A DNA stretch of 64,000 nucleotides from an uncultured Rickettsiales bacterium. Lineage in GTDB: Bacteria; Myxococcota_A; UBA796; UBA9615; CAYRNR01. The stretch spans positions 25,701 to 89,700 of the forward strand of contig CAZOYV010000001.1 in the NCBI GenBank assembly GCA_964584075.1, in the 5' to 3' direction. The notes beneath the pieces were generated by a model that saw nothing but the letters and a program-made list of their open reading frames with translations, was not told the origin of the DNA and did no database searches. Positions 10,001 to 27,551 of the stretch are shown in pieces. Position 1 is the stretch's first letter. Every line of letters starts with the position of its first letter. A program made the translations under genes and the position numbers.

Positions 10001-10443
10001 CCGACGGCGTCGACAACATCGTCGAGGCCCAGCAGCGGGTGGCGCAGCAGTACCTCGACGACGGCGCCGTGGAGGAGGCCTGCCCGCCGCTGCGGGCGCT
10101 GCTGCACATCATGGCCGAGGGCCGCTACGGCGAGTGGGACGAGCACCACCCCGCGTTCCGCGCGCTGTTCACCCGCGAGGCGCTGCTGGCCAGCGACTGG
10201 TACCGCGAGCGGCTCCAGACGCGCCAGCGCCGCGACCGGGCCCTGTGGGAGCGCCACGTCGGCTCGCTGGAGGGCTGGCTGGCCCGGCACCCCGCCGGCG
10301 GCGACCGGCCGCGGCTGGACTTCGCCGGCCGCCTGGAGCGGGCCCGGGCCCAGCTGCGGCGGGTCTCCGCGCCGGAGTACGTCGACGAGCTGGTCGGCAC
10401 GATCGGGGCCGACCCCCTGCAGCCGATCCCCGAGGAGCGCTGA
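7021..10443 (+). CDS. Large (~1140 aa) soluble protein of unknown function
   Basis: Track ORF 6895..10443. The likely start is GTG at 7021, preceded by GGAGG at 7011-7015. The composition is diverse (K, Y, F, N, W present), unlike the Arg/Ala-rich antisense ORF 6832..10290. I could not assign any named domain from the sequence. Confidence 0.55.
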   Translation: MHSTILRQIQLRMAAEGLIDAPFLPDDELWTLTVDLIEAYQARGLKLEDQLDPADRRIQDFLDGECRRLGVADPPRLPRRTLRLDRAGMARELALPLQGSEFHNPVIDSYRLSNGVLHNPRSDRRTTRGAFHVAAGGLPVPGDKIEVPFEAFVRMLRVALQPPDELATLPLTAEWEHPLRCFVSLLLRPVVCPAIPGREPVKTMETRFHAPGGLVANLDFVESIFGNGGLPRIPENDAALDTDHWTGHSGCVVLAPQLTGLPKRALGLPRWDDASERQRRDGVAWRDADEPYNDGYPFKVTHRSASGQVITLISDNYFGYCKKEVKTQIGFAANLYGLAEEEHAGGALAFPSYHLGNVVDLTHRRELEGYRFEDVPALLGDAFVPQPEGHGRDRHHPEIVYVPERTRFSVRDQRLTYTLDGAETSLRLRPGEIYVHPAGYKVQLGRDGGGRHWYLVGTQAEGTFCHKPCTVSGGGKSEISKALDDAVLYGPLFVDDLQRDLDVVQGILDRDYADRYRPALRPDYTGRSSRRVLSERRSLGSVIKMFTPSDSFTDEYNAWLASIPERIWPVVFSLKRFYKPEWGDDWRRRFSVDQINGMAGHQLKYRNRNVVGTYVRLGYDDAGNWRIYKLRQDFRPAAKVQTEDDISTSVVVPRGWLEHLGPAHQEPSQKLVVNVEGRLFQRPDEAIHRGNDRQTEQDMAGDDLFSSNFEPLTADQAREETEDLLLFDQYTEPMRRHLLAGVHQKDRFIVSSARPRLVDGAPSKNPRYLQLRPDRQRPIEPYLATLGARLRRRVPAGEPVPFPVDAVLTGRRNNPPDPDVGIRPLCVYGPIHYQELPELFMDFVASLTGKSPSTTGAGSEGALTKGPFNMLRATADLNAALVGYLLTGHGGFSSAAGFIGPRQRIDHDISLLIPEIWSRLAPEHRQPAFLIEHGYLERVEDRTVGGRVVRASRLGWRITEAFVRDALVRIFDHPHSVFPPTMLRPEEQDLAVFADGVDNIVEAQQRVAQQYLDDGAVEEACPPLRALLHIMAEGRYGEWDEHHPAFRALFTREALLASDWYRERLQTRQRRDRALWERHVGSLEGWLARHPAGGDRPRLDFAGRLERARAQLRRVSAPEYVDELVGTIGADPLQPIPEER

Positions 10444-10794: not shown

Positions 10795-11682
10795 ATGGCC
10801 CCCGCGGACGACGCCAGCGCCGGCACCTGGTTCTTCGCCACGGATCTGCATGGCGAGCTCGATCGCTACCGGTCGCTGCTCCGCGCCGTGCGCGCCGAGC
10901 GCCCCGCGGCGGTGCTGCTCGGCGGCGATCTGCTGCCGTCGTTCGCCGGCCAGCTGGCGTCCCTGGACCCGGCGCACCGCGACTTCGTCGGGGGGTACCT
11001 GATCCCCGAGTTCCTTGCGCTCCGCGACGATCTGGGCACCGACGCACCCGCCGTGCTGCTGATCCTGGGCAACGACGACGCCCGCATCGAGGAGGCGGCG
11101 TTCCTCCACGGCGCGGCGCAGGGGGCCTGGCGCTACGTCCACGACCGCCGCGTCGAGGTCGGCGGCGTGCCGGTCTACGGCTACGCGATGATCCCGCCGA
11201 CCCCGTTCCAGCTCAAGGACTGGGAGCGCTACGACGTGTCGCGGTTCGTCGACCCCGGCTGCATCCCGCCCACCGGCGGGCGGCGCACGGTCCCGGTCTC
11301 GGCGCGCGACCAGGAGTGGCGCACGATCCAGGAGGACCTGGTCCGCCTGGCCGGCGACGACGACCTGACGGACGCGGTGTTCCTGTTCCACTCGCCGCCG
11401 TACCGGACGGCGCTGGACCGCGCCGCGCTGGACGGCCAGGCCGTGGACCACGCGCCGCTGGACGTCCACGTCGGCAGCATCGCGATCCAGCGGTTCCTGA
11501 GGCGCCGCCAGCCGCGGGTCTCGCTGCACGGGCACGTGCACGAGGCGGCGCGGCTGACGGGTCGCTGGCAGGACCGCATCGGCGAGACCGTGTGCCTCGG
11601 TGCGGCCCACGACGGGCCCGAGCTGGCGCTGGTGCGGTTCGATCCGGCCGATCCGGGGTCGGCCACCCGCGAGCTGTGCTAG
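10795..11682 (+). CDS. Calcineurin-like metallophosphoesterase
   Basis: Motifs in order: ATDLHGELD, LGGDLL, ILGNDDA, FHSPPY and LHGHVHEAARL, which is the phosphoesterase signature order. Confidence 0.7.
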   Translation: MAPADDASAGTWFFATDLHGELDRYRSLLRAVRAERPAAVLLGGDLLPSFAGQLASLDPAHRDFVGGYLIPEFLALRDDLGTDAPAVLLILGNDDARIEEAAFLHGAAQGAWRYVHDRRVEVGGVPVYGYAMIPPTPFQLKDWERYDVSRFVDPGCIPPTGGRRTVPVSARDQEWRTIQEDLVRLAGDDDLTDAVFLFHSPPYRTALDRAALDGQAVDHAPLDVHVGSIAIQRFLRRRQPRVSLHGHVHEAARLTGRWQDRIGETVCLGAAHDGPELALVRFDPADPGSATRELC

Positions 11683-11722
11683 GTTCGGGATTCACCCCGA
11701 GGACGGGGCGGTGGGAGCCACG

Positions 11723-14086
11723 ATGTCGTCGACCGACTATCCCCACAACGGCCCGGAGGAGACGGAGGCCAACCTGGCCCACCTCCGGGACCTGCTGGCC
11801 CTCCACGGCGAGATCGAGGAGCGCCTCCGCCAGGCGATGCTGATCGAGCTGCACAGCCGCGGGCTCGTCAGCATCGACGACCTGTACCAGGAGGCCCGCA
11901 CCCGCGCCCGCCACGTCGTCGCCGAGGAGTCCCTGCCGGTGGACGACAACGTCCAGGTCGCCCGCCGCTGGGACGAGGACGAGAAGCGCCACATCCAGGA
12001 CCTGACGCTGGAGCACCTGGCGGAGGCCCTGACGCGGGACGAGATCGACGACCTGGTCAACCTCACCCGCAAGCGCGAGCGGGCCCACTCGCTGGAGGAG
12101 ATCGCCCGCCTGGGCACGGTCTCGTTCGGGGTCCTGGCGCGCAAGGTGCGGGCGTTCTGCCGGCTGCCGATGGGGCACACCACGCTGCCCGAGGAGGACT
12201 CGGTGTCCGTCCGGCTGGCGCTGATCCGCCAGCTGATCTCGGAGCAGCTCGAGTTCCAGTCGGTGGCCAAGCGCTACCTGTGGATCCGCGACTTCGACGA
12301 CCTGGTCGACCGGATCGTGGGGGACGACCAGGGCTCGGGCCGGATCGGCGGCAAGGCGGCCGGGCTCGTCCTCGGGGCCAAGATCCTGTCCCAGGCCCGG
12401 CGCGAGGACCCGCGCGCGCCGAAGCTGCCGCTGGCCACCCCCGAGTCGTTCTACCTGCGCTCGGACGCGATGGAGCAGTTCATCGGCCACAACGGGCTGA
12501 ACCAGCTGCAGGACCACAAGTACCGGGACCTCGACGAGATCCGCAACGACTACCCGGTGCTGCTCGAGATCATGAAGAACGCGTCGTTCCCGCCGGTGGT
12601 GGTCGAGCGGCTCGGGCAGGTCCTCGACCGGGTCGGGACCCACCCGCTGATCGTGCGCAGCTCGTCGCTGCTCGAGGACCGCTTCGGCACCACCTTCGCC
12701 GGCAAGTACCGCTCGGTGTTCGTCGGCAACCAGGGCAGCCGCGAGGAGCGGCTGACCGAGCTGCTCGGCGCCATCGCCGAGGTCTACGCCAGCTCCCTGC
12801 ACCCCGACCCGATCCGCTACCGCAAGCGCCACGGCCTGCTGGACTTCGACGAGAACATGGCCGTGCTGATCCAGAAGATCGTCGGGCGCCGGGTGGGGCG
12901 GTTCTTCCTGCCGGTGTGGGCCGGCGTGGCGTTCTCGCGCAACCCGTACCGCCGCAACCCGCGGATCCGCCCCGAGGACGGCATGGCACGGGTGGTCTTC
13001 GGGCTCGGCACCCGCGCCGTCGACCGCGTCGGCTCGGACACCCCGCGGGTGATCCCGCTGGGGCTGCCGGCGCTGCGCCCCGAGGTCAAGGCCGCGGACA
13101 TCGTCGCCGCCGCCCAGTCCCAGGTGGACGTGCTCGATCTCGAGCGCAACCGCTTCGTCAAGCGGCCGGCGGGCGACGTGCTCGACGCCGCCGCCGGGAT
13201 GCCGGGGCTGGGGATGGTCTGCTCCACCGTGCAGCACGGCGTGATGCGGCCGCTGGTGGGGGACGGCCTGATGGCCGATCCGGCAGAGATGGTGGTCACG
13301 TTCGACCGCTTCGCCCAGTCCAGCCCCTACCCGGCGATGCTGCGCTGGTGCGTCCAGACCCTCGAGCGGGCCTACGGCTGTCCGGTGGACATCGAGTTCG
13401 CGTTCGACGGGGACCGGCTGCACCTGCTGCAGTGCCGGCCCCAGGCGGTCCGCGCCGCGTCGGAGCGGGTCCAGCTGCCCGAGGACGTCGCCGCCGGGGA
13501 CCAGGTGTTCTCGGCCAGCCGCGACGTGATCAACGGCTCGGTGCCGGATCTGGAGTACGTGGTGCTGATCGACCCGCGGGACTACAACGCGCTGCCGGAC
13601 GACCAGAGCCGCATCTGCGTGGCGCAGGTGGTGCGCCGGCTCAACCGCGCGCTGGAGGGCCGGCGCTTCGCGCTGCTCGGGCCCGGCCGGTGGGGCAGCC
13701 GCGACCTGCGGCTGGGCGTGCGCGTCACCTACTCCGACGTGGACAACACGCGGCTGCTGGTCGAGATCGCCCGCAGCCAGAGCGGCTACACCCCGGAGGT
13801 CTCGTTCGGCAGCCACTTCTTCCAGGACCTGGTGGAGTCCGACATCCACTACCTCGCGCTGTACCCCGACGAGCCCGGCGCGGTGTTCGACGAGGGGCTG
13901 CTCCACGGGGCGCCCAACCGGCTGGCGGAGCTGCTGCCCGGCGACGCCCCGTTCGCCGACGTCGTGCGCGTGATCCACGTGCCGTCGGAGACCGGGGGCC
14001 GGGTGCTGCGCGTCGACCTCGACGAGGGCCGCCAGCGGGCGCTGGGGTACCTGACCGTGCGCCAGGAAGAACCCGCTCCGGCCTAG
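11723..14086 (+). CDS. PEP-synthase/pyruvate-phosphate-dikinase N-terminal (PPDK_N, ATP-grasp-like) domain protein with an unknown N-terminal region and a conserved C-terminal domain shared with two paralogues
   Basis: ATG at 11723 (MSSTDYP). The track ORF upstream extension overlaps the phosphoesterase gene. Motifs GGKAAGL...LIVRSSSLLEDRFGTTFAGKYRSVFV...DIEFAFDGDRLHLLQCRP. The C-terminal GPGRWGSRD...SFGSHFFQDL module is shared with 14083..17274 and 17267..19021. Confidence 0.7.
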   Translation: MSSTDYPHNGPEETEANLAHLRDLLALHGEIEERLRQAMLIELHSRGLVSIDDLYQEARTRARHVVAEESLPVDDNVQVARRWDEDEKRHIQDLTLEHLAEALTRDEIDDLVNLTRKRERAHSLEEIARLGTVSFGVLARKVRAFCRLPMGHTTLPEEDSVSVRLALIRQLISEQLEFQSVAKRYLWIRDFDDLVDRIVGDDQGSGRIGGKAAGLVLGAKILSQARREDPRAPKLPLATPESFYLRSDAMEQFIGHNGLNQLQDHKYRDLDEIRNDYPVLLEIMKNASFPPVVVERLGQVLDRVGTHPLIVRSSSLLEDRFGTTFAGKYRSVFVGNQGSREERLTELLGAIAEVYASSLHPDPIRYRKRHGLLDFDENMAVLIQKIVGRRVGRFFLPVWAGVAFSRNPYRRNPRIRPEDGMARVVFGLGTRAVDRVGSDTPRVIPLGLPALRPEVKAADIVAAAQSQVDVLDLERNRFVKRPAGDVLDAAAGMPGLGMVCSTVQHGVMRPLVGDGLMADPAEMVVTFDRFAQSSPYPAMLRWCVQTLERAYGCPVDIEFAFDGDRLHLLQCRPQAVRAASERVQLPEDVAAGDQVFSASRDVINGSVPDLEYVVLIDPRDYNALPDDQSRICVAQVVRRLNRALEGRRFALLGPGRWGSRDLRLGVRVTYSDVDNTRLLVEIARSQSGYTPEVSFGSHFFQDLVESDIHYLALYPDEPGAVFDEGLLHGAPNRLAELLPGDAPFADVVRVIHVPSETGGRVLRVDLDEGRQRALGYLTVRQEEPAPA

Positions 14087-17000
14087 GAGCGGAGCGCGCC
14101 GCCCATCGGCAGCGGGCGGGCGGCGTCGGTGATCGCCCCGATCTTCACCGCCCAGCTGGTCCGCGCCGCGATGTCCTCGTCGGTCACGTAGTGCACGTCG
14201 AGCAGCTGGTCGCTGCGGTACCCCGAGCGCAGGTAGTTCATCTCGGCCAGCGAGCGGCTCCAGCCCTCGAGCCACAGCGCCAGGTGCTCGCGCTGCTCGT
14301 CGCTGGCGCGCACGTGGATCAGCAGGTCGATGTCGCTGCCGGGCCCGGCGGTGGCGTTCTTGGTGCTGCCGAAGACGTAGAACCCGACGACGCCGAAGCG
14401 CTCGGGATCGAGGCTCGCCGCGATCTGCTCCGCCATCTGCAGGCGCCAGCGCCAGAACTCCGCCGGATCCCGGTGGTGGTTGGCGCGCTCGGTCTCGCGA
14501 GGCGGCTCGCTGGCGACCCCGTCGGGCTCGATCAGCAGCCCCATCGCCTCGTCGAGATCGGCGTTCATCAGCACCCGCAGGACCTTGCCCTCGGTGCAGG
14601 CCGGTACGTCGAGGACGTGGACCACGTCGGCGAGCGCCGCGTACTCCGGGAGCATCTCCGCGAGCAGGTTCGGCGAGCGGGTCAGGAACCGCTCCCGGAA
14701 CCGGTTCTCGGGCTCGTCGGGGTACAGCGGCAGGTAGCGGATCCGGGCCTCGACGAGGTCCTGGAAGAAGTGGGTGCCGAACGACAGGTCCGGCACGTAG
14801 CTGCCCTTCTGCCGGGCGATCTCGATCAGCAGCGCGGTGTTGTTGATGTCCGAGTAGGTCACCGACACGCCGAGCTTGATGTCGCCGCGGCTGCCCCACC
14901 GGCCCGGCCCGAGCAGCGCGAAGCGGCGCTTGGGCAGCAGCTTGTTGAGCTTGCCCACCGCGCGGCCGACCTCCTGCATCTCGTGGCGCGAGCCCAGCGC
15001 CCCGTAGGCCACGGGGTCGACGTAGACCAGGTGCGTCAGATCGGGCATCCACCCGTTGGAGACGTAGCGGTTCGCGGTGAACAGCACGTTCTTGTCGTCC
15101 ACCTCGCGTGGGATCGGCGCGGGCTTGCCGCCGTCGGCGTCGCTCTGGGTCCGGCACTGCAGCAGGTACAGGTCCTCGCCGTCGTGGGCGAACTCGATGT
15201 CCACCGGCTTGCCCATCGTCTCCTGCAGGCGCTGGAGGATCTGCCCCATCTGACCGACGAACGGCGTGTCGCGGGTCAGGCCCTCGAAGGTCGCCACCAG
15301 GTCGTCCTCCTCGGGGTCGGTGAGCAGCGGCACCGGCTTGCGCAGCAGGTCGCCGTCGATCACCGAGTAGACGTCGGTCAGGCGCGGCACCTGCGAGCCG
15401 GCCTCGCGCAGCAGCTGCGTCAGCTCGATGGTGCGGAACCGCTGCTCCTCGAGGTCGATCACGTCGACCTTGCGCGGGCTGTAGCGCACGATCTCGTCGA
15501 CGCTGGTGTTGGCCCGCAGCGTGGGCTGACCGGGGACGACCAGCACCGGGTAGTCGTCGGCGACACGGTCGACGGCGCGGCTGCCCAGGCCCGGGACGAG
15601 GCGCAACAGCCCGTCCTCGCGCCGGATCCGCGGGGACCAGCGGAACTCGTTGTGGCTGAACGCCACCCCGGCGAAGGCCGGCAGGAAGTAGCGGCCGACC
15701 TGTTGCCCGACCACCTCCTGGATCAGCACGCCCATCTCCTCGTTGAAGTCGATCAGCCCGTGCTCGCGGCGGTACTCGATCGGGTCCGGGCCGAACACCG
15801 AGGCGTAGACCTCGGCGATGGCGTCGAGCAGCGCGGCGAGCCGCTGCTGGCGGCTGCCCAGGTTGGCCAGGAACAGGCTCTTGTACTTGCCCGAGAACGC
15901 CGTGCCGACCCGGTCCTCGAGCAGGCTGCTGCTGCGCACGATCACCGGGCGGCCCTCGAACTCCGCCAGCGCCACGGTCATGCCCTTGATCAGCTCCGGC
16001 GGGAACCGCGAGCGCTTGAACAGCTGGATGATGTTGGGGTAGTCGTGCCGGATCTCGTCGATGCTCTTGTACTTCTGCTCGTGGACGTCCTCGAGGTCGT
16101 TGTAGGCGATGAACTGCCGCAGCCCCGACGAGGCGACGAACCACGTCAGCGGGACGCGCACCCGCGTCTCCTGGGACAGCTCCGGGTCCTTGCGCAGGAT
16201 GCGGTGGGCGAGCACCAGCCCCGAGGCCTTGCCGCCCAGCTTGCCGTGGCTCTCCGCGGGCATCACGACCCGGTCGAGGATCCGCTCGAAGGCGTTGGTC
16301 CCGATGTACTCCTTGGCCACGTTGATGAAGTCGAGCTGCTCGGTCAGCAGCTTGCGGATCAGCGCCACCCGCAGCCCGGCGGTGGTGTAGCGCGGCAGCT
16401 CGCCGACGTCGGCGACGACGTGGTGGTAGCGCCGCAGCGCGTCGGCGATCTCGGGCAGCGAGCTGCGCTCGGCGTGGAGCACCTTGGTGAAGTAGTTGGC
16501 GCGGTCCTCGACCATCCACCGCTGGATCCGGGTCAGGATCTCGTCGTCGGTCAGGCACCGCGTGGCCAGCTCGAACGGCTCGTCGGTGAGCAGCCAGGCC
16601 TCGTCGGCCTCGCGCGTCTGGCCGGGGGCGTTGACCTCGCCGACCCCGTCCTCGCCGTCCAGCGAGCCCTGGGTGCCCCGATCGAGCCACGCCCCGGCGT
16701 CCTCGCAGCCCGTCCAGAACAGGTGGTTGAGCAGCTTGCGCGCGATGCGCAGGTACAGGTCGCGGTCGGACTTGCGCAGCAGGTGGACGGCGGCCATCCA
16801 CTCGCCGGAGCGGTGCGTCTCCAGCTCGACGCTGACCTGGTCCAGGTCCTGCCGCATCTCCTTGAGCTCCTGGTAGAACATGAAGTGCGACAGCCGCTGG
16901 GCGATGGTCTTGATCAGCCGGATCTCCTCCTTGAGGAACGGGCCCTGATCCTCCCGCGGGCGGGGCTCGGTGTAGTACACCCGCACATGGCCCACCGGCT

Positions 17001-17274
17001 CGGTCTGGATCACCAGGTCGGCCTGCAGCCGCCACGGCGTGTGGGTGAACTCCCCGGAGCGATAGGTCTGCCCCTCGTAGCGGATCTCGGCCTGGCAGAC
17101 GTCGGGGTACTGCCAGCCCGGGGGGATCACCTTGACCGCCGCGGCGAGCAGGTCGTGGACCTTCATCTCGGGGCGGTTGATCAGCTCCTCGACCTCGTAC
17201 AGGCAGTTGAGCTCCTTGGCTCGCTCCTGCAGGGCGACGAGCAGCTTGTCCGCGGGCCGGCCGGTGTCAGTCAT
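14083..17274 (-). CDS. Multidomain paralogue with an N-terminal GAF-like domain, a PPDK_N ATP-grasp domain, the shared C-terminal module and a C-terminal minimal nucleotidyltransferase domain
   Basis: 1063 aa. GAF-like N-terminus (LNCLYEVEELINRPEM). GGKASGL...VIVRSSSLLEDRVGTAFSGKYKSLFL...DIEFAHDGEDLYLLQCRTQ. GPGRWGSRGDIKLGV...SFGTHFFQDL. C-terminal GFYVFGSTKNATAGPGSDIDLLIHV (an NTase-fold GS...DxD). It is convergent with 11723..14086, sharing a palindromic CCTAGG stop. Confidence 0.7.
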   Translation of the reverse strand: MTDTGRPADKLLVALQERAKELNCLYEVEELINRPEMKVHDLLAAAVKVIPPGWQYPDVCQAEIRYEGQTYRSGEFTHTPWRLQADLVIQTEPVGHVRVYYTEPRPREDQGPFLKEEIRLIKTIAQRLSHFMFYQELKEMRQDLDQVSVELETHRSGEWMAAVHLLRKSDRDLYLRIARKLLNHLFWTGCEDAGAWLDRGTQGSLDGEDGVGEVNAPGQTREADEAWLLTDEPFELATRCLTDDEILTRIQRWMVEDRANYFTKVLHAERSSLPEIADALRRYHHVVADVGELPRYTTAGLRVALIRKLLTEQLDFINVAKEYIGTNAFERILDRVVMPAESHGKLGGKASGLVLAHRILRKDPELSQETRVRVPLTWFVASSGLRQFIAYNDLEDVHEQKYKSIDEIRHDYPNIIQLFKRSRFPPELIKGMTVALAEFEGRPVIVRSSSLLEDRVGTAFSGKYKSLFLANLGSRQQRLAALLDAIAEVYASVFGPDPIEYRREHGLIDFNEEMGVLIQEVVGQQVGRYFLPAFAGVAFSHNEFRWSPRIRREDGLLRLVPGLGSRAVDRVADDYPVLVVPGQPTLRANTSVDEIVRYSPRKVDVIDLEEQRFRTIELTQLLREAGSQVPRLTDVYSVIDGDLLRKPVPLLTDPEEDDLVATFEGLTRDTPFVGQMGQILQRLQETMGKPVDIEFAHDGEDLYLLQCRTQSDADGGKPAPIPREVDDKNVLFTANRYVSNGWMPDLTHLVYVDPVAYGALGSRHEMQEVGRAVGKLNKLLPKRRFALLGPGRWGSRGDIKLGVSVTYSDINNTALLIEIARQKGSYVPDLSFGTHFFQDLVEARIRYLPLYPDEPENRFRERFLTRSPNLLAEMLPEYAALADVVHVLDVPACTEGKVLRVLMNADLDEAMGLLIEPDGVASEPPRETERANHHRDPAEFWRWRLQMAEQIAASLDPERFGVVGFYVFGSTKNATAGPGSDIDLLIHVRASDEQREHLALWLEGWSRSLAEMNYLRSGYRSDQLLDVHYVTDEDIAARTSWAVKIGAITDAARPLPMGGALRS

Positions 17275-19021
17275 CGTGGATCACGATCCCCCGTCCCGTG
17301 CGCCCGTCGGCCAGGACCCGCAGCGGCGCCGGCGTGCGCAGGTGGCGCACGTGGGCGGTCTCGGCGACGGCCGGCTGGTCCATCAGCCACGCGAAGTCGA
17401 TCCGGGTGCGGTCCCGCACCGACAGGTACAGCACGTGGAAGGCGATGAGGTTCTGGAAGAAGTGGGACCCCTGGCTGGGGTCGGGCTGCATGTTGGGCAG
17501 GGTCGCCTCGACGATCACCCGCGCGCCCTGGATCTGGCCGTAGTCCACGGGGATCCCGAGCCAGGGGTCGGAGCTGCCCCAGCGGCCGAAGCCGATCAGC
17601 AGGTAGGGCCGCCCGGCGTGCCGCAGCGCCACGTCGAGGCCCTCGATCTCGGCGGCGATCTCGCGGGTCGCGGCCGGGTCGAAGCGGTCGGGGCGGACCA
17701 GCACGACGTCCTCGATGTCCGCGAGCTCGCCGTGCCCCAGCGCGGCGTCGGAGGCCAGCACCACGCCGGGGCCGCGCATCAGCTCGTCGTCGATCTCGAC
17801 CGTCCCGTCGGCCACCGCCATCGGCCGGACCTGCAGGAACCCCAGCCGCGCGGGGAGGCCGCGCTTGGGGTGCAGGTCGGCGGCGAACTCGATCTCGACC
17901 GCGGTGCCGACGACCTCCTCGCAGCGCGCCAGCAGCCGGCGCACGACGTCGTTGAGCGGCACGTCGCGGAACAGCCGCAGCGGGGCGAAGTCGAGGACCC
18001 GCGGGCCCGGGTTGCCGATCCCGGGGACCACCGTGCCCTGGCCCGCGACGAAGGTCGACGCGACGTACTTGAGCACGTCGTCGTACTCCGCCTCGCGCAG
18101 CCCGGGGTGCAGCAGGTACTCGTCCTCGCGCACCGGATCGGGGGTCGGGGGGCGGCCCATGTTCACCGCCCAGAACCGGTTCTGGGTGTTCTTGATCAGG
18201 TCGCGGGGTCCCCCGTAGGGCATCGGCTTCTTGGGGTACGCCGGGGTGTAGGTCCAGCTGATCCCGCCGTCGACGATCGTCTTGCCCAGCCCCAGCGCCA
18301 GGTTGACCACGCCGTCCTCGGGCCTGGCGCGGCCCATCGGGTAGTAGTTGTAGGAGCGCGCGACCCCCGACAGCGTCGGGTAGAACCGGTCGCCGCGGCG
18401 CGTGCCGACCACCTCCTGGAGGATCACGGCCATCTTCTCGTCTCGCGGGTTGCGCCCGACGCGCTCGATGTAGCGCTGCGCGGCGCGGAACCAGGTCGAC
18501 GCCCAGACGAACTTGATCGCCTCCACCAGGCGGCGGAAGCGGGTGTCCGGCTCCGGCTGGTGGTTGGGGATCATCTTGGTCGCGTAGACCCCGGCGAACG
18601 GGTGGTGCAGGTCGTCCTCGAGCAGGCTCGAGGAGCGCACCGCCAGCGGGGTGTGCAGCCGCTGGCCGAGCGTGCGCAGGTCCCCCACCACCAGCGGGGG
18701 GAGCTCGCCGCGCTGGAAGGCGTGGGCGATGCGATCGTCCGGCTCGCCGGAGCGCAGCAGCCGGGACAGATCGTTGTGGGCCACGAACTGGTCGAACAGG
18801 TCGGTGCCCAGCACCGTGGCGGTCGGCACGAACAGCTCGAAGCCACCGCGGGCGGCCTCGTCGAGGGCGGGCAGGATCTCGTCGAGGACCAGCGCCAGGC
18901 TGCTGGCCTTGCCCCCCAGGCCGCCCCCCCCGATGCGCGTCAGCGCGGCCGGCGCGCCGCGGTGGTTGCGGTCGTAGACCGGGACATCGCGACCGCTCAG
19001 ACCCAGCCCCTCTCGCGGCAC
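17267..19021 (-). CDS. Third PPDK_N-domain paralogue (ATP-grasp plus shared C-terminal module); start uncertain
   Basis: GGGLGGKASSL...LAVRSSSLLEDDLHHPFAGVYATKMI...EIEFAADLHPKRGLPARLGFLQVRP...GFGRWGSSDPWLGIPV...SHFFQNL. The N-terminal about 570 aa of track ORF 17267..20395 overlaps gdhA in another frame and is rejected. The GTG at about 19021 is the first plausible in-frame start. The 3' end overlaps the next gene by ATGACTGA. Confidence 0.6.
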   Translation of the reverse strand: MPREGLGLSGRDVPVYDRNHRGAPAALTRIGGGGLGGKASSLALVLDEILPALDEAARGGFELFVPTATVLGTDLFDQFVAHNDLSRLLRSGEPDDRIAHAFQRGELPPLVVGDLRTLGQRLHTPLAVRSSSLLEDDLHHPFAGVYATKMIPNHQPEPDTRFRRLVEAIKFVWASTWFRAAQRYIERVGRNPRDEKMAVILQEVVGTRRGDRFYPTLSGVARSYNYYPMGRARPEDGVVNLALGLGKTIVDGGISWTYTPAYPKKPMPYGGPRDLIKNTQNRFWAVNMGRPPTPDPVREDEYLLHPGLREAEYDDVLKYVASTFVAGQGTVVPGIGNPGPRVLDFAPLRLFRDVPLNDVVRRLLARCEEVVGTAVEIEFAADLHPKRGLPARLGFLQVRPMAVADGTVEIDDELMRGPGVVLASDAALGHGELADIEDVVLVRPDRFDPAATREIAAEIEGLDVALRHAGRPYLLIGFGRWGSSDPWLGIPVDYGQIQGARVIVEATLPNMQPDPSQGSHFFQNLIAFHVLYLSVRDRTRIDFAWLMDQPAVAETAHVRHLRTPAPLRVLADGRTGRGIVIHDD

Positions 19022-20283
19022 GCGGTGGCCACGCGGTTGATCGAGATCACGTAGGCCGCGTCGCGCATGTACAGCTTGCGCTTGCGCGCCAGCTCGCTGA
19101 TCGCCAGGAACGCCGACGTCATCTTGAGGTCCAGCTTGCCGAGGACCTCGTCGATCTCCCAGAAGTAGTTCATGTTCGACTGCACCTGCTCGAAGTAGGA
19201 GCAGGTCACGCCGCCGGCGTTGGCCATGAAGTCCGGGATCACGAAGATCCCGCGCTCGTGGATCACCTTGTCGGCGTTGGGCGTGGTCGGCCCGTTGGCG
19301 CCCTCGGCGATGATCCGCACGCGCGGCCCGATCCGCTCGACGTTGTCGCGGTTGATCTGGTTCTCCAGCGCCGCGGGGATCAGGATGTCGACGTCCTGGT
19401 CGATCCACACGTCGCCGGGCTCCACCGAGTAGCCCAGCTCCCGGGCCTTGTCCTTGTCGATCCCGCCGAAGCGGTCGGTGATCCCGCGCAGCTGCTCGAG
19501 CTCCACGCCGTCCTTGCGGACGAACGCGTAGGAGGTCTGGTCCTCCTGGTCCCAGCTGGAGACGCACACCACCTTGCCGCCGATCTGCTCGTACAGCTCG
19601 ATCGCGTACTGCGCCACGTTGCCGAAGCCCTGCACGCTGGCGGTGGTGTCGCCGGGGCGCAGGTCCAGCTCCTTGAGCGCCTCGCGCAGCGTGTAGACCA
19701 GGCCGTAGCCGGTGGCCTGCGTGCGGCCCAGCGAGCCGCCCATCCCCACCGGCTTGCCGGTGATCAGGCCGGGGTAGCGGCCGCCGTGCAGGGTCTCGTA
19801 CTCGTCGAGCATCCACAGCATGTGCTGGGCGTTGGTCATCACGTCGGGGGCCGGCACGTCGCGCACCGGGCCGATGTCGCGGGCGAGCTGGCGCACGAAC
19901 CCGCGGCAGATCTGCTCCTGCTCGCGCAGCGACAGGTTGTGCGGGTCGCAGATCACGCCGCCCTTGCCGCCGCCGAGCGGGATGTCCACCGCGGCGCACT
20001 TCCAGGTCATCCACATCGACAGCGCGCGGACGGTGTCGACGGTCTCCTGGGGGTGGAACCGGATCCCGCCCTTGCACGGACCGCGGGCGTCGTTGTGCTG
20101 CACACGGAACCCCTGGAACACCTGGACGCTCCCGTCGTCCATTCGCACCGGAATGCGGAAGTGGTACTCCCGCAGCGGGGTCCGCAGCAGCGCGCGGGTC
20201 GCGTCGTCGAGCCCCAGCAGGTCGGCGATCTTGTCGAACTGCTCCTGCGCCATCTCGAAGGGATTGAAGCCTGCCGTTGCCAT
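18997..20283 (-). CDS. gdhA: NAD(P)-dependent glutamate dehydrogenase (Glu/Leu/Phe/Val dehydrogenase family)
   Basis: MATAGFNPFEMAQEQFDKIA...KGGIRFHPQETVDTVRALSMWMTWKCAAVDIPLGGGKGGV...GFGNVAQYA...FVIPDFMANAGGV, the full GDH signature set. Start ATG at about 20283. The track's upstream extension is Arg-rich low complexity. Confidence 0.85.
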   Translation of the reverse strand: MATAGFNPFEMAQEQFDKIADLLGLDDATRALLRTPLREYHFRIPVRMDDGSVQVFQGFRVQHNDARGPCKGGIRFHPQETVDTVRALSMWMTWKCAAVDIPLGGGKGGVICDPHNLSLREQEQICRGFVRQLARDIGPVRDVPAPDVMTNAQHMLWMLDEYETLHGGRYPGLITGKPVGMGGSLGRTQATGYGLVYTLREALKELDLRPGDTTASVQGFGNVAQYAIELYEQIGGKVVCVSSWDQEDQTSYAFVRKDGVELEQLRGITDRFGGIDKDKARELGYSVEPGDVWIDQDVDILIPAALENQINRDNVERIGPRVRIIAEGANGPTTPNADKVIHERGIFVIPDFMANAGGVTCSYFEQVQSNMNYFWEIDEVLGKLDLKMTSAFLAISELARKRKLYMRDAAYVISINRVATACRERGWV

Positions 20284-20413
20284 CGGTCTCGCGCCTCCTG
20301 GCCGCCGGCGTCTTGCCGAGCGGGACCGCAACATTCGCGCGGCTGTTCGGGGATGTCAACACGGGCGTGCCCGCGCGTGCGCTGTGCGACGCCACGGCAC
20401 GGGTCGTGCGCGG

Positions 20414-20887
20414 TCAGGGGGAGGCCGGCTCGGCCGCCGCCGCGGGCCCGAGCTGGCTGGTGCAGTGCGGGCAGCGCAGCGCGTCCTGGTCGATGGTCGA
20501 CTTGCACTGCGGGCAGATCTTGGTGTGCGGGGGCGCGGGGGTGTCGGGGCGGCGCAGCCGGTTCATCCACCGCACGGCGAAGAACAGCACCACGGCGACC
20601 AGCAGGAACGCCACGATCGCGTTGAGGAACGCGCCATAGGCCAGCACCGTCGCGCCGGCCGCACGCGCCTCGGCCAGCGTCGCGAACGGCCCCGCCACGT
20701 CGCCGGTGCCGAGCACGACGAACTTCTCGCCGAAGTCCAGCCCGCCGGTGAGCAGCCCCAGCGGGGGCATGATCACGTCGTCGACCAGGGACTTGACCAC
20801 CGTCGTGAACGCGGCGCCGAGGATGATCCCGACGGCCATGTCCATCACGTTGCCCTTGATCGCGAACTCCTTGAATTCCTTGAGCAT
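20414..20887 (-). CDS. mscL: Large-conductance mechanosensitive channel MscL with an unusual C-terminal CxxC...CxxC zinc-ribbon extension
   Basis: [52 protein letters not shown] is canonical MscL. An extra roughly 30-aa tail reads [22 protein letters not shown]. Confidence 0.8.
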
Positions 20888-21066
20888 CGCAGCCTCCCAC
20901 GCGGGTTCTACGACTGATTCCGGCTGCGGGGAAGACCCGTGCCGATCGACGCGCCGCCTATCGCGCTCCGGGCCGCGAGGACGTACGGTAGGCGTTCCTC
21001 GGCCAAGCCGCTGGCGGACCTGCGGGTGGGATCGCGACCGTGCGCGCCGGGGAGGGGAGGTGTCCC

Positions 21067-21933
21067 ATGAACGAGGTCTGGATCCGCCTCAAGGAGCTGT
21101 TCGCGCCGGCGTCGATCGCCGAGCGGCTGGTGGACCAGTGGCTGCCCGACCTGGTGGTCGCGGCGATCGTGCTGCTGTCGTCCTGGCTGCTGTGGTTCGT
21201 CGTCGGGCGCACGCTGGGGGCGGTGTTCCGCCGCACCCACCTGGACGAGACCGCGCGCTCGTTCCTGCTGGCGGTGCTCCGGTACGCGATCCTGATCGTC
21301 GGGCTGGTCACCGCGCTGAGCCAGCTGGGGGTCAACACCGGGTCGATCCTGGCCAGCCTGGGGGTCGTCGGGCTGACGATCGGCTTCGCCGCGCGGGACA
21401 CGCTGTCCAACGTGATCTCGGGGCTGTTCATCTTCTGGGATCGGCCGTTCGTGATCGGCGACCTGGTCGAGATCGACGACCACTACGGCAAGGTCCAGGA
21501 GATCACGATGCGTTCGACGCGGGTGGTGACGGTGGACGGCCGGATGCTGGCGATCCCGAACAGCAACGTGGTCAACACCACGGTGGCGTCGTACACCAAC
21601 TTCCCGCACCTGCGGATCGAGATCGACATCACGGTCAACGTGGCCGAGGATCTGGATCGCGTGCGCTCGATCCTGCTGGAGCTGGTCGCCGACGACGACC
21701 GCTACATGGCCGAGCCGGCGCCGGAGATGGTGGTGACCGCCCTGAACGACTACAACACCGCGGTCCAGCTGCGGGCCTGGCTCGACAACGAGCGGGAGCA
21801 CGTCGCGGCCCGCCTCGCGCTCCGCGAGCGGGCGTTCCGGGCCCTCACCGCGGCCGGGGTCGACCTGCCGTTCGAGACGCTGCGGCTGGAGCCCCTGACG
21901 GTCCGGCAGTCCGCCCAGGTGGGGAGCGCCTGA
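21067..21933 (+). CDS. Small-conductance mechanosensitive channel (MscS family)
   Basis: ATG at 21067 (MNEVWIRL). Three TM helices followed by ...[62 protein letters not shown], the MscS beta-domain signature. It is divergent from mscL. Confidence 0.8.
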
Positions 21934-21937
21934 CCCG

Positions 21938-24226
21938 ATGCCCTCTCCCGCGGCCCCCGAGCAGCGCGGCCACGGCTTCGGCACCGCACCGGTGTTCCTG
22001 GCCGCGATCAGCACGATCCTCGGTGCGATCCTGTTCCTGCGGTTCGGCTACGCCGTCGGCCACGTGGGGATGCTCGGGGCGTTCGCGATCATCCTGATCG
22101 CCCACGCGATCACGATCCCGACGGGGCTGGCGGTGGCGGAGATCGCCACCAACCTCAAGGTCGAGGGCGGCGGCGAGTACTACATCATCAGCCGCTCGTT
22201 CGGGCGCACCGTGGGGGCCGCGATCGGGATCTCGCTGTACCTCTCGCAGGCGGTCTCGGTGGCGTTCTACCTGATCGCGTTCTCCGAGGCGTTCCGGCCC
22301 CTGTTCCCGCTGGTCGAGGAGCACCTCGGGTTCACCCCCGACGTGCGGATGGTGGGCATCCCGGCCGTCGTGCTGCTGTCGGTGCTGATGCTGACCAAGG
22401 GCGCCGACCTGGGCGTGCGCGCGCTGTGGGTCGTGGCCTCGATCCTCGGGGTCTCGCTGCTGCTGTTCTTCCTGGGGTCGCCGACCCAGCCGGGGATCGA
22501 GCTGGACCTCACGGCGCGGACCGCGAACCCGGACCCGTTCTTCACGGTCTTCGCCATCGTGTTCCCGGCATTCACCGGGATGACGGCCGGCGTCGGCCTG
22601 TCGGGGGATCTGCGGAACCCGCGGCGATCGATCCCGCTGGGCACGATGCTGGGCACGCTGGTGGGGATGGCCACCTACATCGCGATCGTGTTCAAGATGA
22701 GCATCAGCGCCACGCCGGACGAGCTGGGCAACGACCCGTTCATCATGAGCAGGATCGCGCTGTGGGCCCCGGCGATCTTCATCGGCCTGGCGGCGGCCAC
22801 CGTCTCCTCGGCGATCGGCTCGATCCTGGTCGCGCCGCGGACCCTGCAGGCGCTGGCCCACGACGGGGTGTTCCCGGTACGGCGCGTCAACCGCCTGCTG
22901 GCCAGCGGCCGCGGCGAGGCCAACGAGCCGTTCGTCGCCACCGTGTTCACCGCGGCGCTGGCGCTGGTGTTCGTGGCGCTGGGCAGCGTCGACGTCGTCG
23001 CCCAGCTGATCTCGATGTTCTTCATGGTCACCTACGGCGCGCTGTGCGCGATCAGCTTCCTGGAGCACTTCGCGGGCAACCCGTCGTACCGGCCGACGTT
23101 CCGCTCCAAGTGGTACCTTTCGCTGATCGGCGCCGTGGCCTGCGGCGTGATGATGTGGCAGATGCAGCCGCTGTACGCCGTGGTGGCGGCGGTGGTGATG
23201 GCCGCCCTGTACCTGTGGATGAAGCGCACCATGAAGGGCGGCCGCGACCTGTCGGACATGGTCCAGGGGGTGCTGTTCCAGCTGACGCGCAAGCTGCAGG
23301 TGATGCTGCAGAAGAACCAGGCGTCGCTGTCGATGACGAGCTGGCGGCCTTCGTTCATCGCCATCTCGGCCCACTCGCTGACCCGGCTGGCGCCGTTCGA
23401 CCTGCTGCGCTGGATCTCCCACTACCACGGGTTCGGGACGTGGATCCACTTCGTCAAGGGGCCGCTGTCCGAGGAGCTCAACGACAAGGCGCGGGGGATC
23501 CTCGACAGGCTGATCCAGCAGATCCAGGCCAGCCGCGCGGCGCTGTACGTCGACACGATCATCTCGCCGAGCTTCATGACCGCGGTGGCCCAGATCGTCC
23601 AGATCCCCGGGATCTCCGGGCTGGACAACAACTCGATCCTGTTCGAGTTCCGCAAGGGCAAGGACGAGGAGATCGCCGACCTGCTGGTGGGTAGCAAGTT
23701 CGCCTCGGTGGCGGGGTTCAACATCTGCGTGCTGCGCAGCGCGGACCACCACTTCGGCTACAAGCGCACGATCCACATCTGGCTGCGCCCCGGCGACTAC
23801 CGCAACGCGTCGTTGATGATCCTGCTGGGCTACATCCTGATCGGCCACAAGGAGTGGAAGGGCGCCACGATCCAGCTCTACGCGGCGTTCACCGAGCGGG
23901 AGCTGGACCGCGGCGTGGCGCGGCTGAACACGCTGATCGGCCAGGGGCGGATCCCGATCTCGATCAACAGCGTGGAGTGGGTCCCGATCCCCGACGGCAC
24001 CGACTTCGACGAGATGGTCACCCGCCGCTCGACCGGCGCCGACCTGGTGATCACCGGCCTGTCGCTGTCCAAGATGCAGGCCGACGGCGGCGCGTTCCTG
24101 ACCGGCTTCGAGGGCATCGCGGACCTGCTGTTCGTGCGGGCAGGCCAGGAGATCCTGATCACCGCCGACGACGAGGAGGCGCCGCCGCCGGCCCCCACGG
24201 AGCCGATCCCGGACCCGCCCGGATAG
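21938..24226 (+). CDS. Cation-chloride cotransporter (SLC12/CCC)-like APC-superfamily transporter with a C-terminal cytoplasmic domain
   Basis: 762 aa. GEYYIISRSFGRTVGAAIGISLYLSQAVSVAFYLIAFSE closely parallels the NKCC/KCC motif GAYYLISRSLGPEFGG.IGL.F..ANAV.VAM. Twelve TM segments plus a roughly 330-aa C-terminal soluble domain, which is the SLC12 architecture. Confidence 0.65.
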   Translation: MPSPAAPEQRGHGFGTAPVFLAAISTILGAILFLRFGYAVGHVGMLGAFAIILIAHAITIPTGLAVAEIATNLKVEGGGEYYIISRSFGRTVGAAIGISLYLSQAVSVAFYLIAFSEAFRPLFPLVEEHLGFTPDVRMVGIPAVVLLSVLMLTKGADLGVRALWVVASILGVSLLLFFLGSPTQPGIELDLTARTANPDPFFTVFAIVFPAFTGMTAGVGLSGDLRNPRRSIPLGTMLGTLVGMATYIAIVFKMSISATPDELGNDPFIMSRIALWAPAIFIGLAAATVSSAIGSILVAPRTLQALAHDGVFPVRRVNRLLASGRGEANEPFVATVFTAALALVFVALGSVDVVAQLISMFFMVTYGALCAISFLEHFAGNPSYRPTFRSKWYLSLIGAVACGVMMWQMQPLYAVVAAVVMAALYLWMKRTMKGGRDLSDMVQGVLFQLTRKLQVMLQKNQASLSMTSWRPSFIAISAHSLTRLAPFDLLRWISHYHGFGTWIHFVKGPLSEELNDKARGILDRLIQQIQASRAALYVDTIISPSFMTAVAQIVQIPGISGLDNNSILFEFRKGKDEEIADLLVGSKFASVAGFNICVLRSADHHFGYKRTIHIWLRPGDYRNASLMILLGYILIGHKEWKGATIQLYAAFTERELDRGVARLNTLIGQGRIPISINSVEWVPIPDGTDFDEMVTRRSTGADLVITGLSLSKMQADGGAFLTGFEGIADLLFVRAGQEILITADDEEAPPPAPTEPIPDPPG

Positions 24227-27538: not shown

Positions 27539-27551
27539 CGCCGCCCCCCCC

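What the first reader, a model, noticed from the sequence alone, without database searches (positions are those of the whole stretch)
11723..20283. Three divergent paralogues of a PEP-synthase-N-terminal (PPDK_N) ATP-grasp protein, one with GAF and nucleotidyltransferase domains, clustered with gdhA
Genes 11723..14086 (+), 14083..17274 (-) and 17267..19021 (-) all contain the PPDK_N block (GGKAxGL...RSSSLLED...AGxY...IEFAxDG..L.LLQxRP). Each is followed by a shared C-terminal module (G.GRWGS.D...SFG[ST]HFFQ[DN]L) that is not the canonical phospho-His swivel domain; I saw no GGRTSHAAI-type motif. The middle paralogue adds an N-terminal GAF-like sensor and a C-terminal minimal nucleotidyltransferase (GS-x9-DxD). 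The two minus-strand paralogues overlap each other (ATGACTGA) and follow gdhA directly; the third GTG start overlaps the gdhA stop. That placement suggests a regulatory or covalent-modification system acting on or alongside glutamate dehydrogenase, or a substrate phosphotransferase set in the manner of rifampin-phosphotransferase-like enzymes. A triplicated sensor/NTase-equipped PPDK_N family without swivel domains is not something I can match to a described system.
Basis: partly seen in the sequence, partly recalled or inferred. Interest (0 to 1): 0.6.

Follow-up and report, generated by a model that had tools for sequence, protein, structure and literature searches.

The report
Glutamate-dehydrogenase-linked dikinase-like sensor enzymes
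Next to the glutamate dehydrogenase gene sit three related ATP-using enzymes of unknown function; two of them, with a phosphoesterase, form a four-gene unit with that gene which is kept in hundreds of bacterial species from more than ten phyla, so it probably controls or extends this central nitrogen enzyme in an undescribed way.

Summary
Genes A (11723..14086 +), B (14083..17274 -) and C (17267..19021 -) each carry a PPDK_N ATP-grasp domain followed by a shared C-terminal module of about 180 aa. No Pfam or NCBIfam model and no PDB sequence matches that module. None has a PEP-utilizers swivel motif or a PEP/pyruvate-binding barrel, so they are not PEP synthases or PPDKs.

New findings:
- The conserved unit is gdhA-C-B plus a convergent metallophosphoesterase. 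GDH lies directly upstream of C in 66/73 loci and B directly downstream in 64/65, across more than 10 phyla. A is a lineage-specific extra.
- C and B overlap at stop/start and occur as natural C-B fusions.
- A fourth, receiver-domain paralogue sits beside a second, E. coli-type GDH in several genomes.

Best reading (inferred, about 0.35): ligand-gated, His-phosphorylating dikinase-like enzymes that covalently modify GDH, with the phosphoesterase reversing the modification. A metabolite dikinase at the glutamate/2-oxoglutarate node is nearly as likely. I found no published description.

The parts
18997..20283 (-). gdhA, hexameric-type glutamate dehydrogenase. The start at 20283 (MATAGFNPFEM...) matches the orthologues' N-termini; the ORF could extend to 20334.
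   Evidence: Pfam ELFV_dehydrog_N and ELFV_dehydrog. Aligns end to end with P. furiosus GDH 1gtm, 400 bits, with no extra domain. Lies directly upstream of C in 66/73 related loci.
17267..19021 (-). Paralogue C, 584 aa. The minimal form: PPDK_N ATP-grasp (aa 35-405) plus C-module (aa ~405-584). Its GTG start lies inside the gdhA 3' end.
17270..17809 (-). C-module of C, the unmodelled ~180-aa C-terminal domain. The invariant His520 codon is at 17462..17464.
14083..17274 (-). Paralogue B, 1063 aa: GAF (aa ~8-135; 16855..17274), helical region (aa ~141-345), PPDK_N (aa 345-722), C-module (aa ~723-918; His835 codon 14770..14772), MNT-type nucleotidyltransferase (aa ~936-1063; 14086..14469).
11723..14086 (+). 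Paralogue A, 787 aa. B-like without GAF and NTase: helical N-region, PPDK_N (aa 207-588), C-module (aa ~590-787; His698 codon 13814..13816). A lineage-specific third copy.
   Evidence: Pfam PPDK_N 5e-56. 43% identical to B. A-type found linked only in L001 and L002/L003, plus a fragment in L006.
10795..11682 (+). Metallophosphoesterase, 295 aa. Here it lies upstream of A; in most genomes it converges on the 3' end of B.
   Evidence: Pfam Metallophos 9e-8. Metal-binding motifs DxH, GD, GNDD, H and HGHxH are invariant in 46 orthologues. Convergent directly after B in 33/56 loci and present in 41/56.

Best explanation
**Shown**
- gdhA, C, B and a metallophosphoesterase form a four-gene module conserved across many bacterial phyla. 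A is an extra B-like copy in this lineage.
- A, B and C each keep the PPDK-type ATP-grasp motifs in all families: GGK, RSS..ED, the acidic E before FA, and LQxR. From memory, these correspond to the catalytic K22/R92/E323/Q335/R337 of C. symbiosum PPDK.
- Each also has a previously unmodelled C-terminal domain with an invariant His.
- None has a PEP/pyruvate barrel or any other acceptor-binding domain.
- B also has a GAF sensor and an MNT-type nucleotidyltransferase with an intact active-site motif.

**Inferred**
- The C-module is a very divergent swivelling phosphohistidine domain. The enzymes would then perform the first half of dikinase chemistry (ATP + His gives His~P + AMP + Pi) and hand the phosphoryl group to an external acceptor.
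- C and B work as a hetero-oligomer, because they are translationally coupled and fused in some genomes.
- Their activity is gated by a small ligand bound to B's GAF domain. By analogy with the NifA and PtsP GAF domains, this could be 2-oxoglutarate or glutamine (their ligands are cited from memory).
- The most economical acceptor is GDH itself, because it is the only non-signalling enzyme always encoded with them. It would be switched by phosphorylation and/or nucleotidylylation, and the metallophosphoesterase would remove the modification.
For: **Synteny**
- GDH directly upstream of C on the same strand in 66/73 loci. B directly downstream in 64/65. Phosphoesterase convergent after B in 33/56.
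- All-against-all clustering of flanking ORFs finds no other recurrent gene.

**Coupling of C and B**
- 8-nt stop/start overlap.
- Natural C-B fusions of about 1640 aa.

**Signal-input domains**
- GAF fold in B.
- A receiver-domain paralogue D next to a second, E. coli-type GDH in L041, L052, L074, L076 and L083. Two GDH subfamilies are therefore each paired with this enzyme family.

**Swivel-like fold with His**
- His520 opens helix 519-527 after strand 500-506. The His is at least 95% conserved over 150 representatives.

**Other parts**
- NTase resembles protein- and hydroxyl-adenylylating MNT and AadA enzymes.
- Phosphoesterase metal ligands are invariant.
Against: - No experiment and no complex prediction links these proteins physically to GDH.
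- GDH has no extra domain or obvious docking element.
- The C-module shows no sequence similarity to PEP-utilizers domains. hhalign probability is below 1% against E. coli PpsA and PtsI, and the T/SxxGGxxxH signature is absent.
- The His loop is modelled with low confidence.
- About 55% identity across phyla and operon co-expression with GDH would also fit a stoichiometric metabolic enzyme.
- D-type genes in two complete Bacteroidales genomes are not next to GDH.
Confidence: 0.35

Rival explanations
1. Metabolite dikinase. C and B (with or without A) are a heteromeric small-molecule water-dikinase that phosphorylates a substrate or product of GDH: 2-oxoglutarate, glutamate, ammonia as a phosphoramidate, or a derivative. 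The acceptor site is formed by the helical region or the subunit interface. The GAF domain acts as an allosteric site, and the phosphoesterase hydrolyses the product or a side product.
For: - The whole known PPDK_N family (PEPS, PPDK, RPH, HpeHI, phenylphosphate synthase) phosphorylates small molecules or glucans. Two-component versions exist.
- A dikinase relative is reported to make a phosphoramidate from aniline (PMC7500099 title and abstract).
- High sequence conservation (about 55% across phyla) and tight operon coupling to a metabolic enzyme are typical of pathway enzymes.
Against: - No recognisable acceptor-binding domain. There is no PEP-utilizers_C, and no RIF-binding-like or Rph_4th domain.
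- A receiver domain in paralogue D and a fused MNT-type NTase in B are unusual for pathway enzymes.
- No known pathway needs a phosphorylated glutamate/2-oxoglutarate derivative of this kind (own knowledge).
Confidence: 0.3
2. Phosphorelay or signalling module, like PTS-Ntr. B and C autophosphorylate on His in response to nitrogen/carbon status and pass the signal to targets encoded elsewhere. gdhA is only co-transcribed because it belongs to the same physiological response.
For: - Swivel-like His domain.
- Receiver-domain paralogue D occurs away from GDH in Bacteroidales.
- K+/osmotic genes lie beside gdhA here and in L010.
Against: - No HPr-like or other carrier gene recurs in 85 loci.
- The GDH-C gene order is almost invariant (66/73), which is tighter than expected for mere co-regulation.
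Confidence: 0.15
3. They are ordinary PEP synthases or pyruvate phosphate dikinases, as some database names say ('pyruvate, water dikinase', 'phosphoenolpyruvate synthase').
For: PPDK_N domain. JGI and NCBI names on some homologues.
Against: - No PEP-utilizers or PEP-utilizers_C domain.
- NCBIfam PEPS/PPDK equivalog scores are 17-60 bits against cutoffs of 456-1063.
- No swivel motif.
Confidence: 0.01
4. Rifampin-phosphotransferase-like xenobiotic or antibiotic kinases, or an anti-phage defence system.
For: - Weak PADLOC hits of the NTase (PDC-S09) and the phosphoesterase (PDC-S10).
Against: - No RIF-binding domain. RPH equivalog score is 40 bits against a cutoff of 999.
- Fixed chromosomal synteny with a housekeeping gene in hundreds of species, unlike resistance or defence islands.
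- PADLOC matches cover only the generic catalytic cores.
Confidence: 0.03

Closest known systems
Pyruvate phosphate dikinase / PEP synthase (PPDK_N + PEP-utilizers + PEP-utilizers_C)
   Same: Homologous ATP-grasp nucleotide domain with the same conserved motifs. It is followed by a domain whose predicted fold matches the phosphohistidine carrier domain and which carries an invariant His at the start of a helix.
   Different: No PEP/pyruvate TIM-barrel. No T/SxxGGxxxH motif and no detectable sequence similarity in the carrier-like domain. Extra GAF, helical and NTase parts. Always encoded beside GDH.
Rifampin phosphotransferase and the two-component small-molecule dikinases HpeHI / CreHI / phenylphosphate synthase PpsAB
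   Different: No substrate-binding (RIF-binding-like) domain. Each subunit here carries both the ATP-grasp and the His-bearing domain. Not in catabolic or resistance gene clusters.
Enzyme I-Ntr (PtsP): GAF + phosphohistidine swivel domain + PEP-binding domain
   Different: The phosphoryl donor here would be ATP through an ATP-grasp domain, not PEP. No NPr/HPr partner is encoded.
GlnE / GlnD control of glutamine synthetase (nucleotidyltransferase-based covalent modification cascade)
   Same: A nucleotidyltransferase-fold enzyme and a sensor domain associated with an ammonium-assimilating enzyme. A reversing hydrolase is present. This is a functional analogy only.
   Different: There is no homology beyond the generic pol-beta NTase fold. 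The target would be GDH, the main catalytic domains are dikinase-like, and nothing has been tested.
HEPN-MNT antitoxins and aminoglycoside adenylyltransferases AadA / AAD(9)
   Same: B's C-terminal domain matches these minimal NTases and keeps GS...DxD.
   Different: It is fused to a 900-aa dikinase-like protein. There is no HEPN partner and no resistance context.

Membership tests
PEP synthase / PPDK | PPDK_N ATP-grasp nucleotide-binding domain | tested here: met
PEP synthase / PPDK | PEP-utilizers swivel domain with the T/SxxGGxxxH phosphohistidine motif | tested here: not met
PEP synthase / PPDK | C-terminal PEP/pyruvate-binding TIM barrel (PEP-utilizers_C) | tested here: not met
   No Pfam match. 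C ends 5 residues after the C-module.
PEP synthase / PPDK | NCBIfam equivalog score above cutoff | tested here: not met
   Best scores are 60, 54 and 50 bits against cutoffs of 598-883.
Rifampin phosphotransferase-type small-molecule dikinases | Substrate-binding (RIF-binding-like) domain between the ATP-grasp and swivel domains | tested here: not met
GAF domain | GAF fold | tested here: met
Minimal (pol-beta / MNT) nucleotidyltransferases | hG[GS]-x9-13-DxD motif and NTP_transf_2 score above cutoff | tested here: met
   31.3 bits against a cutoff of 21. G969, S970, D981 and D983 are invariant in 57 orthologues. Foldseek hits to AAD(9), AadA and MNT.
Calcineurin-like metallophosphoesterases | DxH / GD / GNH(D/E) / H / GHxH metal-binding motifs | tested here: met
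   Pfam score 33.2 against a cutoff of 21.5. The motifs are invariant in 46 orthologues; the third motif reads GNDD.
Hexameric glutamate dehydrogenase | ELFV_dehydrog_N and ELFV_dehydrog domains, full-length similarity to characterised GDH | tested here: met
   (1gtm, 400 bits, residues 7-428 against 4-417). NCBIfam GdhA_Arch scores 457 bits, below its equivalog cutoff of 750.
Covalent-modification cascade on a nitrogen enzyme (GlnE/GlnD-like, functional class) | Demonstrated modification of the target enzyme | not testable with these tools
   Needs biochemistry or mass spectrometry. Only gene linkage is available.

The most novel reading that the evidence does not exclude
GDH in a large part of the bacterial world (Acidobacteriota, Planctomycetota, Gemmatimonadota, the FCB group and others) is controlled by a dedicated, previously unrecognised covalent-modification machine. 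A GAF-gated, ATP-driven pair of dikinase-like enzymes uses a new type of phosphohistidine carrier domain, and a fused adenylyltransferase, to modify GDH. A metallophosphoesterase erases the mark. This would be the GDH counterpart of the GlnE/GlnD system for glutamine synthetase.
Probability: 0.25. Interest if true: 0.85.

Novelty: new variant of a known kind. Interest (0 to 1): 0.7.

Why it matters
GDH sits at the junction of carbon and nitrogen metabolism. Outside a few model systems, how bacteria switch it is poorly understood.

It spans more than ten phyla that dominate soils, sediments and wastewater. Its proteins are about 55% identical between phyla, yet they carry only generic or wrong names such as 'PEP/pyruvate-binding domain-containing protein' and 'phosphoenolpyruvate synthase'.

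Working out its function would have three consequences:
- It would correct thousands of annotations.
- It would define a new domain family, the His-bearing C-module.
- It would reveal either a new post-translational control of GDH or a new ATP-dependent reaction at the glutamate/2-oxoglutarate node.

The hypothesis is directly testable with purified proteins.

Tried and rejected
- **Sequence homology of the C-module to known domains.** A profile of the C, B and A modules against PDB sequences gave only spurious hits. Per-member Pfam scans at E<=10 gave nothing. hhalign against E. coli PpsA and PtsI gave probability below 1%.
- **Pfam on sub-ranges.** The GAF and helical regions of B and the N-region of A gave nothing. 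A profile of the GAF region against PDB sequences also gave nothing. Only the structure-based search worked.
- **Literature.** Seven full-text searches found no paper on this cluster or family: PPDK_N; pyruvate-binding domain plus GDH plus metallophosphoesterase; response regulator plus PEP synthase; GDH reversible inactivation in Bacteroides; and others (one search gave only background on dikinases).
- **Defence-system reading.** PADLOC hits are weak and restricted to generic catalytic cores. Rejected.
- **Riboswitch or leader RNA.** No Rfam hit in the whole window. The promoter and terminator scan was not above the shuffled expectation.
- **GDH fusions.** None among the top 150 representatives of the C-module family.
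- **PPi-PEPCK as part of the module.** The neighbouring 1182-aa gene is a PPi-PEPCK, but it is absent from all other loci. Rejected.
- **Source organism.** Looking up the window's own C protein to identify the source organism failed: no gene record was found and no names are attached.
Full report
**1. What is in the window**

The window has 68-76% G+C. ORF listing and codon-position G+C filtering give this gene order:
- metallophosphoesterase, MPE (10795..11682, +)
- A (11723..14086, +)
- B (14083..17274, -)
- C (17267..19021, -)
- gdhA (18997..20283 or 20334, -)

The A, B and C products are exact entries in the public protein collection, so these gene models match earlier gene calls.

Pfam results:
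- PPDK_N in all three: 5e-56, 1.6e-57 and 7.9e-31.
- NTP_transf_2 at the C-terminus of B.
- ELFV domains in gdhA and Metallophos in MPE.
- No PEP-utilizers and no PEP-utilizers_C.

NCBIfam PEP synthase, PPDK, RPH and PigC models score 17-60 bits against cutoffs of 456-1350. The canonical swivel motif is absent.

**2. Conservation**

Homologues are numerous and well conserved:
- C has more than 8000 homologous 90% clusters. The best 120 are all about 580 aa at 54-79% identity.
- B has more than 6000. They are full length, about 1060 aa, at 52-72% identity.
- Source names are generic or wrong: 'PEP/pyruvate-binding domain-containing protein', 'nucleotidyltransferase domain-containing protein', 'pyruvate, water dikinase'.

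Four look-ups of distant homologues returned the same neighbourhood: GDH, C, B and MPE, sometimes with A.

The 80 loci kept carry these labels:
- Acidobacteriota (several classes)
- Planctomycetota
- Eisenbacteria
- Gemmatimonadota
- Ignavibacteriota
- Calditrichota
- Zixibacteria
- Bacteroidota
- Krumholzibacteriota
- Spirochaetaceae
- Bradymonadales and Anaerolineae

My tblastn mapping of the window proteins onto 85 loci gave:

| Relationship | Loci |
|---|---|
| GDH directly upstream of C, same strand | 66/73 |
| B directly downstream of C | 64/65 |
| MPE convergent immediately after B | 33/56 |
| MPE present anywhere in the locus | 41/56 |

All-against-all clustering of every ORF in those loci found no other recurrent family. 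The module is therefore exactly four genes.

A-type genes are linked only in L001 and L002/L003, with a fragment in L006. The 'triplication' is a lineage feature, not the conserved one.

Proteins of 1630-1654 aa are natural C-B fusions.

**3. Domain anatomy from structure prediction**

*Paralogue C.* The model has pLDDT 87.4 and pTM 0.84.
- In the model the invariant His520 opens helix 519-527. It lies after strand 500-506 (VIVEAT) and a Gly/Ser loop, and before strand 531-535. By my own visual comparison (no superposition was possible), this is the strand-loop-His-helix-strand arrangement of the canonical 'IvTe.GG.TSHAAIvAR..G.P.V'.

At sequence level there is nothing. The evidence is the profile search against PDB sequences, per-member Pfam scans at E<=10, hhalign against E. 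coli PpsA and PtsI, and the missing T/SxxGGxxxH signature described for swivel domains (PMC12167813). I therefore call it swivel-like by fold, not a member of PF00391.

A search of 1.84 billion representatives with the C-module found 1526 clusters. The module is always C-terminal. The core L.G.GRWG...G.P...E...S.G.H.F is at least 95% conserved.

*Paralogue B.* The model has pLDDT 80.6.
- The C-terminal domain matches MNT antitoxins and the aminoglycoside adenylyltransferases AadA and AAD(9) by Foldseek. GS...DxD is invariant.

*Other parts.*
- The ATP-grasp motifs (GGK, RSS..ED, E.FA, LQ.R) are invariant in all three families.
- MPE keeps all metal ligands in 46 orthologues.
- GDH aligns end to end with P. 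furiosus GDH and has no extra domain.

**4. A fourth paralogue and a second GDH**

Several related loci carry a protein of about 1000 aa made of Response_reg, a DUF5752-like stretch, PPDK_N and the C-module. It lies immediately beside a second, E. coli-type GDH that is 32-38% identical to the window GDH.

Its C-module is the closest relative of C's. This D-type is abundant in Bacteroidales, where it is annotated 'phosphoenolpyruvate synthase' or 'CheY-like'. In two complete genomes it is not adjacent to GDH.

Two GDH subfamilies are thus each paired with this enzyme family, and the family repeatedly acquires signal-input domains (GAF, receiver).

**5. Mechanism**

*Shown:*
- Intact ATP-grasp nucleotide sites.
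- An invariant His on a flexible loop of a carrier-like domain.
- No acceptor domain.
- A GAF sensor and an active-looking NTase in B.
- Coupling and fusion of C and B.
- An active-looking phosphoesterase.
- Near-obligatory linkage to GDH.

*Inferred:*
- ATP-dependent autophosphorylation on the His (dikinase half-reaction), followed by transfer to an external acceptor.
- Gating by a metabolite bound to the GAF domain.
- Reversal by MPE.

I consider GDH the most economical acceptor, giving a covalent-modification switch (confidence about 0.35). It is the only non-signalling enzyme in the module, and sensor, receiver and NTase domains are hallmarks of regulatory enzymes.

The rivals are:
- A small-molecule dikinase at the glutamate/2-oxoglutarate/ammonia node. 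This is nearly as likely (about 0.3), given that every characterised member of the superfamily phosphorylates small molecules or glucans, and given the high conservation.
- A PTS-Ntr-like phosphorelay to targets encoded elsewhere (about 0.15).
- Ordinary PEPS/PPDK, RPH-like resistance and phage defence, which are effectively excluded.

**6. Comparison with known systems and novelty**

The ATP-grasp domain is a bona fide PPDK_N member. The proteins fail the other defining features of PEPS/PPDK and of RPH-type dikinases (see the membership table).

In function, the closest analogies are:
- EI-Ntr, a GAF domain plus a phosphohistidine enzyme in nitrogen signalling.
- The GlnE/GlnD cascade on glutamine synthetase.

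Neither is homologous beyond single domains. Seven literature searches and three curated HMM libraries gave no description of the module, the C-module or the N-terminal helical region.

I classify it as a new variant of a known kind: a new branch of the dikinase superfamily, with a new carrier-like domain and a new genomic partnership. There is a realistic chance (about 0.25) that it is a new regulatory system for GDH.

**7. Limits**

- All evidence is computational.
- No complex prediction could be run.
- Almost all of the 85 related loci and all named homologues come from metagenome-assembled genomes, some with doubtful taxon labels (for example 'Rickettsiales' for the closest relative, L006).
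- The source organism of the window was not identified.

Noticed in passing
window 6895..10443 (+): A 1182-aa protein with no Pfam or NCBIfam hit is a PPi-dependent PEP carboxykinase. It scores 1149 bits to 6k31 (AiPEPCK) and 1135 bits to 8e1u. It is not present in the other 85 loci, so it is not part of the GDH module. Curated HMM libraries apparently still lack this family.
   Followed up: partly
window 20414..24226: MscL (with a C-terminal zinc ribbon), MscS and an SLC12/KCC-like cation-chloride transporter lie directly beside gdhA. A KCC-like gene also lies next to GDH in L010 at 63% identity. This may reflect a link to potassium-glutamate osmotic balance, or it may be chance.
   Followed up: partly
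L052:17805-20774, L076:14870-17908, L074:15720-18770, L083:5510-8518; L085:17403-20384: A fourth paralogue type of about 1000 aa has Response_reg, a DUF5752-like stretch, PPDK_N and the C-module. In L052, L074, L076 and L083 (and in L041, where its exact ORF was not delimited) it sits beside a second, E. coli-type GDH. In L085 no second GDH was seen near it. It is widespread in Bacteroidales, where it is misnamed 'phosphoenolpyruvate synthase', and is not GDH-linked in two complete genomes there.
   Followed up: partly
P0178, P0192, P0197, P0205, P0219, P0240 (not in window): Natural single-chain C-B fusions of 1629-1654 aa, including one labelled Ignavibacteriae. Residues 18-589 of P0192 align to C at 46% identity and the rest aligns to B.
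   Followed up: yes
L088 and L089, near the D-type gene: An Ala_racemase_N / D-ser_dehydrat family gene lies near the D-type gene in both Bacteroidales complete genomes. It is adjacent in L089 and 7.8 kb away in L088. This hints at an amino-acid-metabolism context there as well.
   Followed up: no
window 14072..14093: A G+C-rich hairpin followed by T-rich sequence lies exactly at the 4-nt convergent overlap of A and B. It may be a bidirectional terminator, but the count of such sites is not above the shuffled expectation.
   Followed up: no
window 26093..28766 (-) and 30075..32129 (+): Two adjacent Fer4/CCG-domain proteins (HdrD/GlpC-like iron-sulfur oxidoreductases) and a 684-aa protein with a C-terminal Ser/Thr protein kinase domain. 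A protein kinase (Pkinase, ABC1 or Kdo families) also lies just upstream of GDH in L004 and L005.
   Followed up: no
window 11213..17035 (-), 12280..17448 (+), 17267..20395 (-): Very long alternative-frame ORFs of 1000-1900 aa overlap the real genes. They are artefacts of the high G+C content. Antisense 'shadow' ORFs of the conserved genes also cluster across loci.
   Followed up: yes
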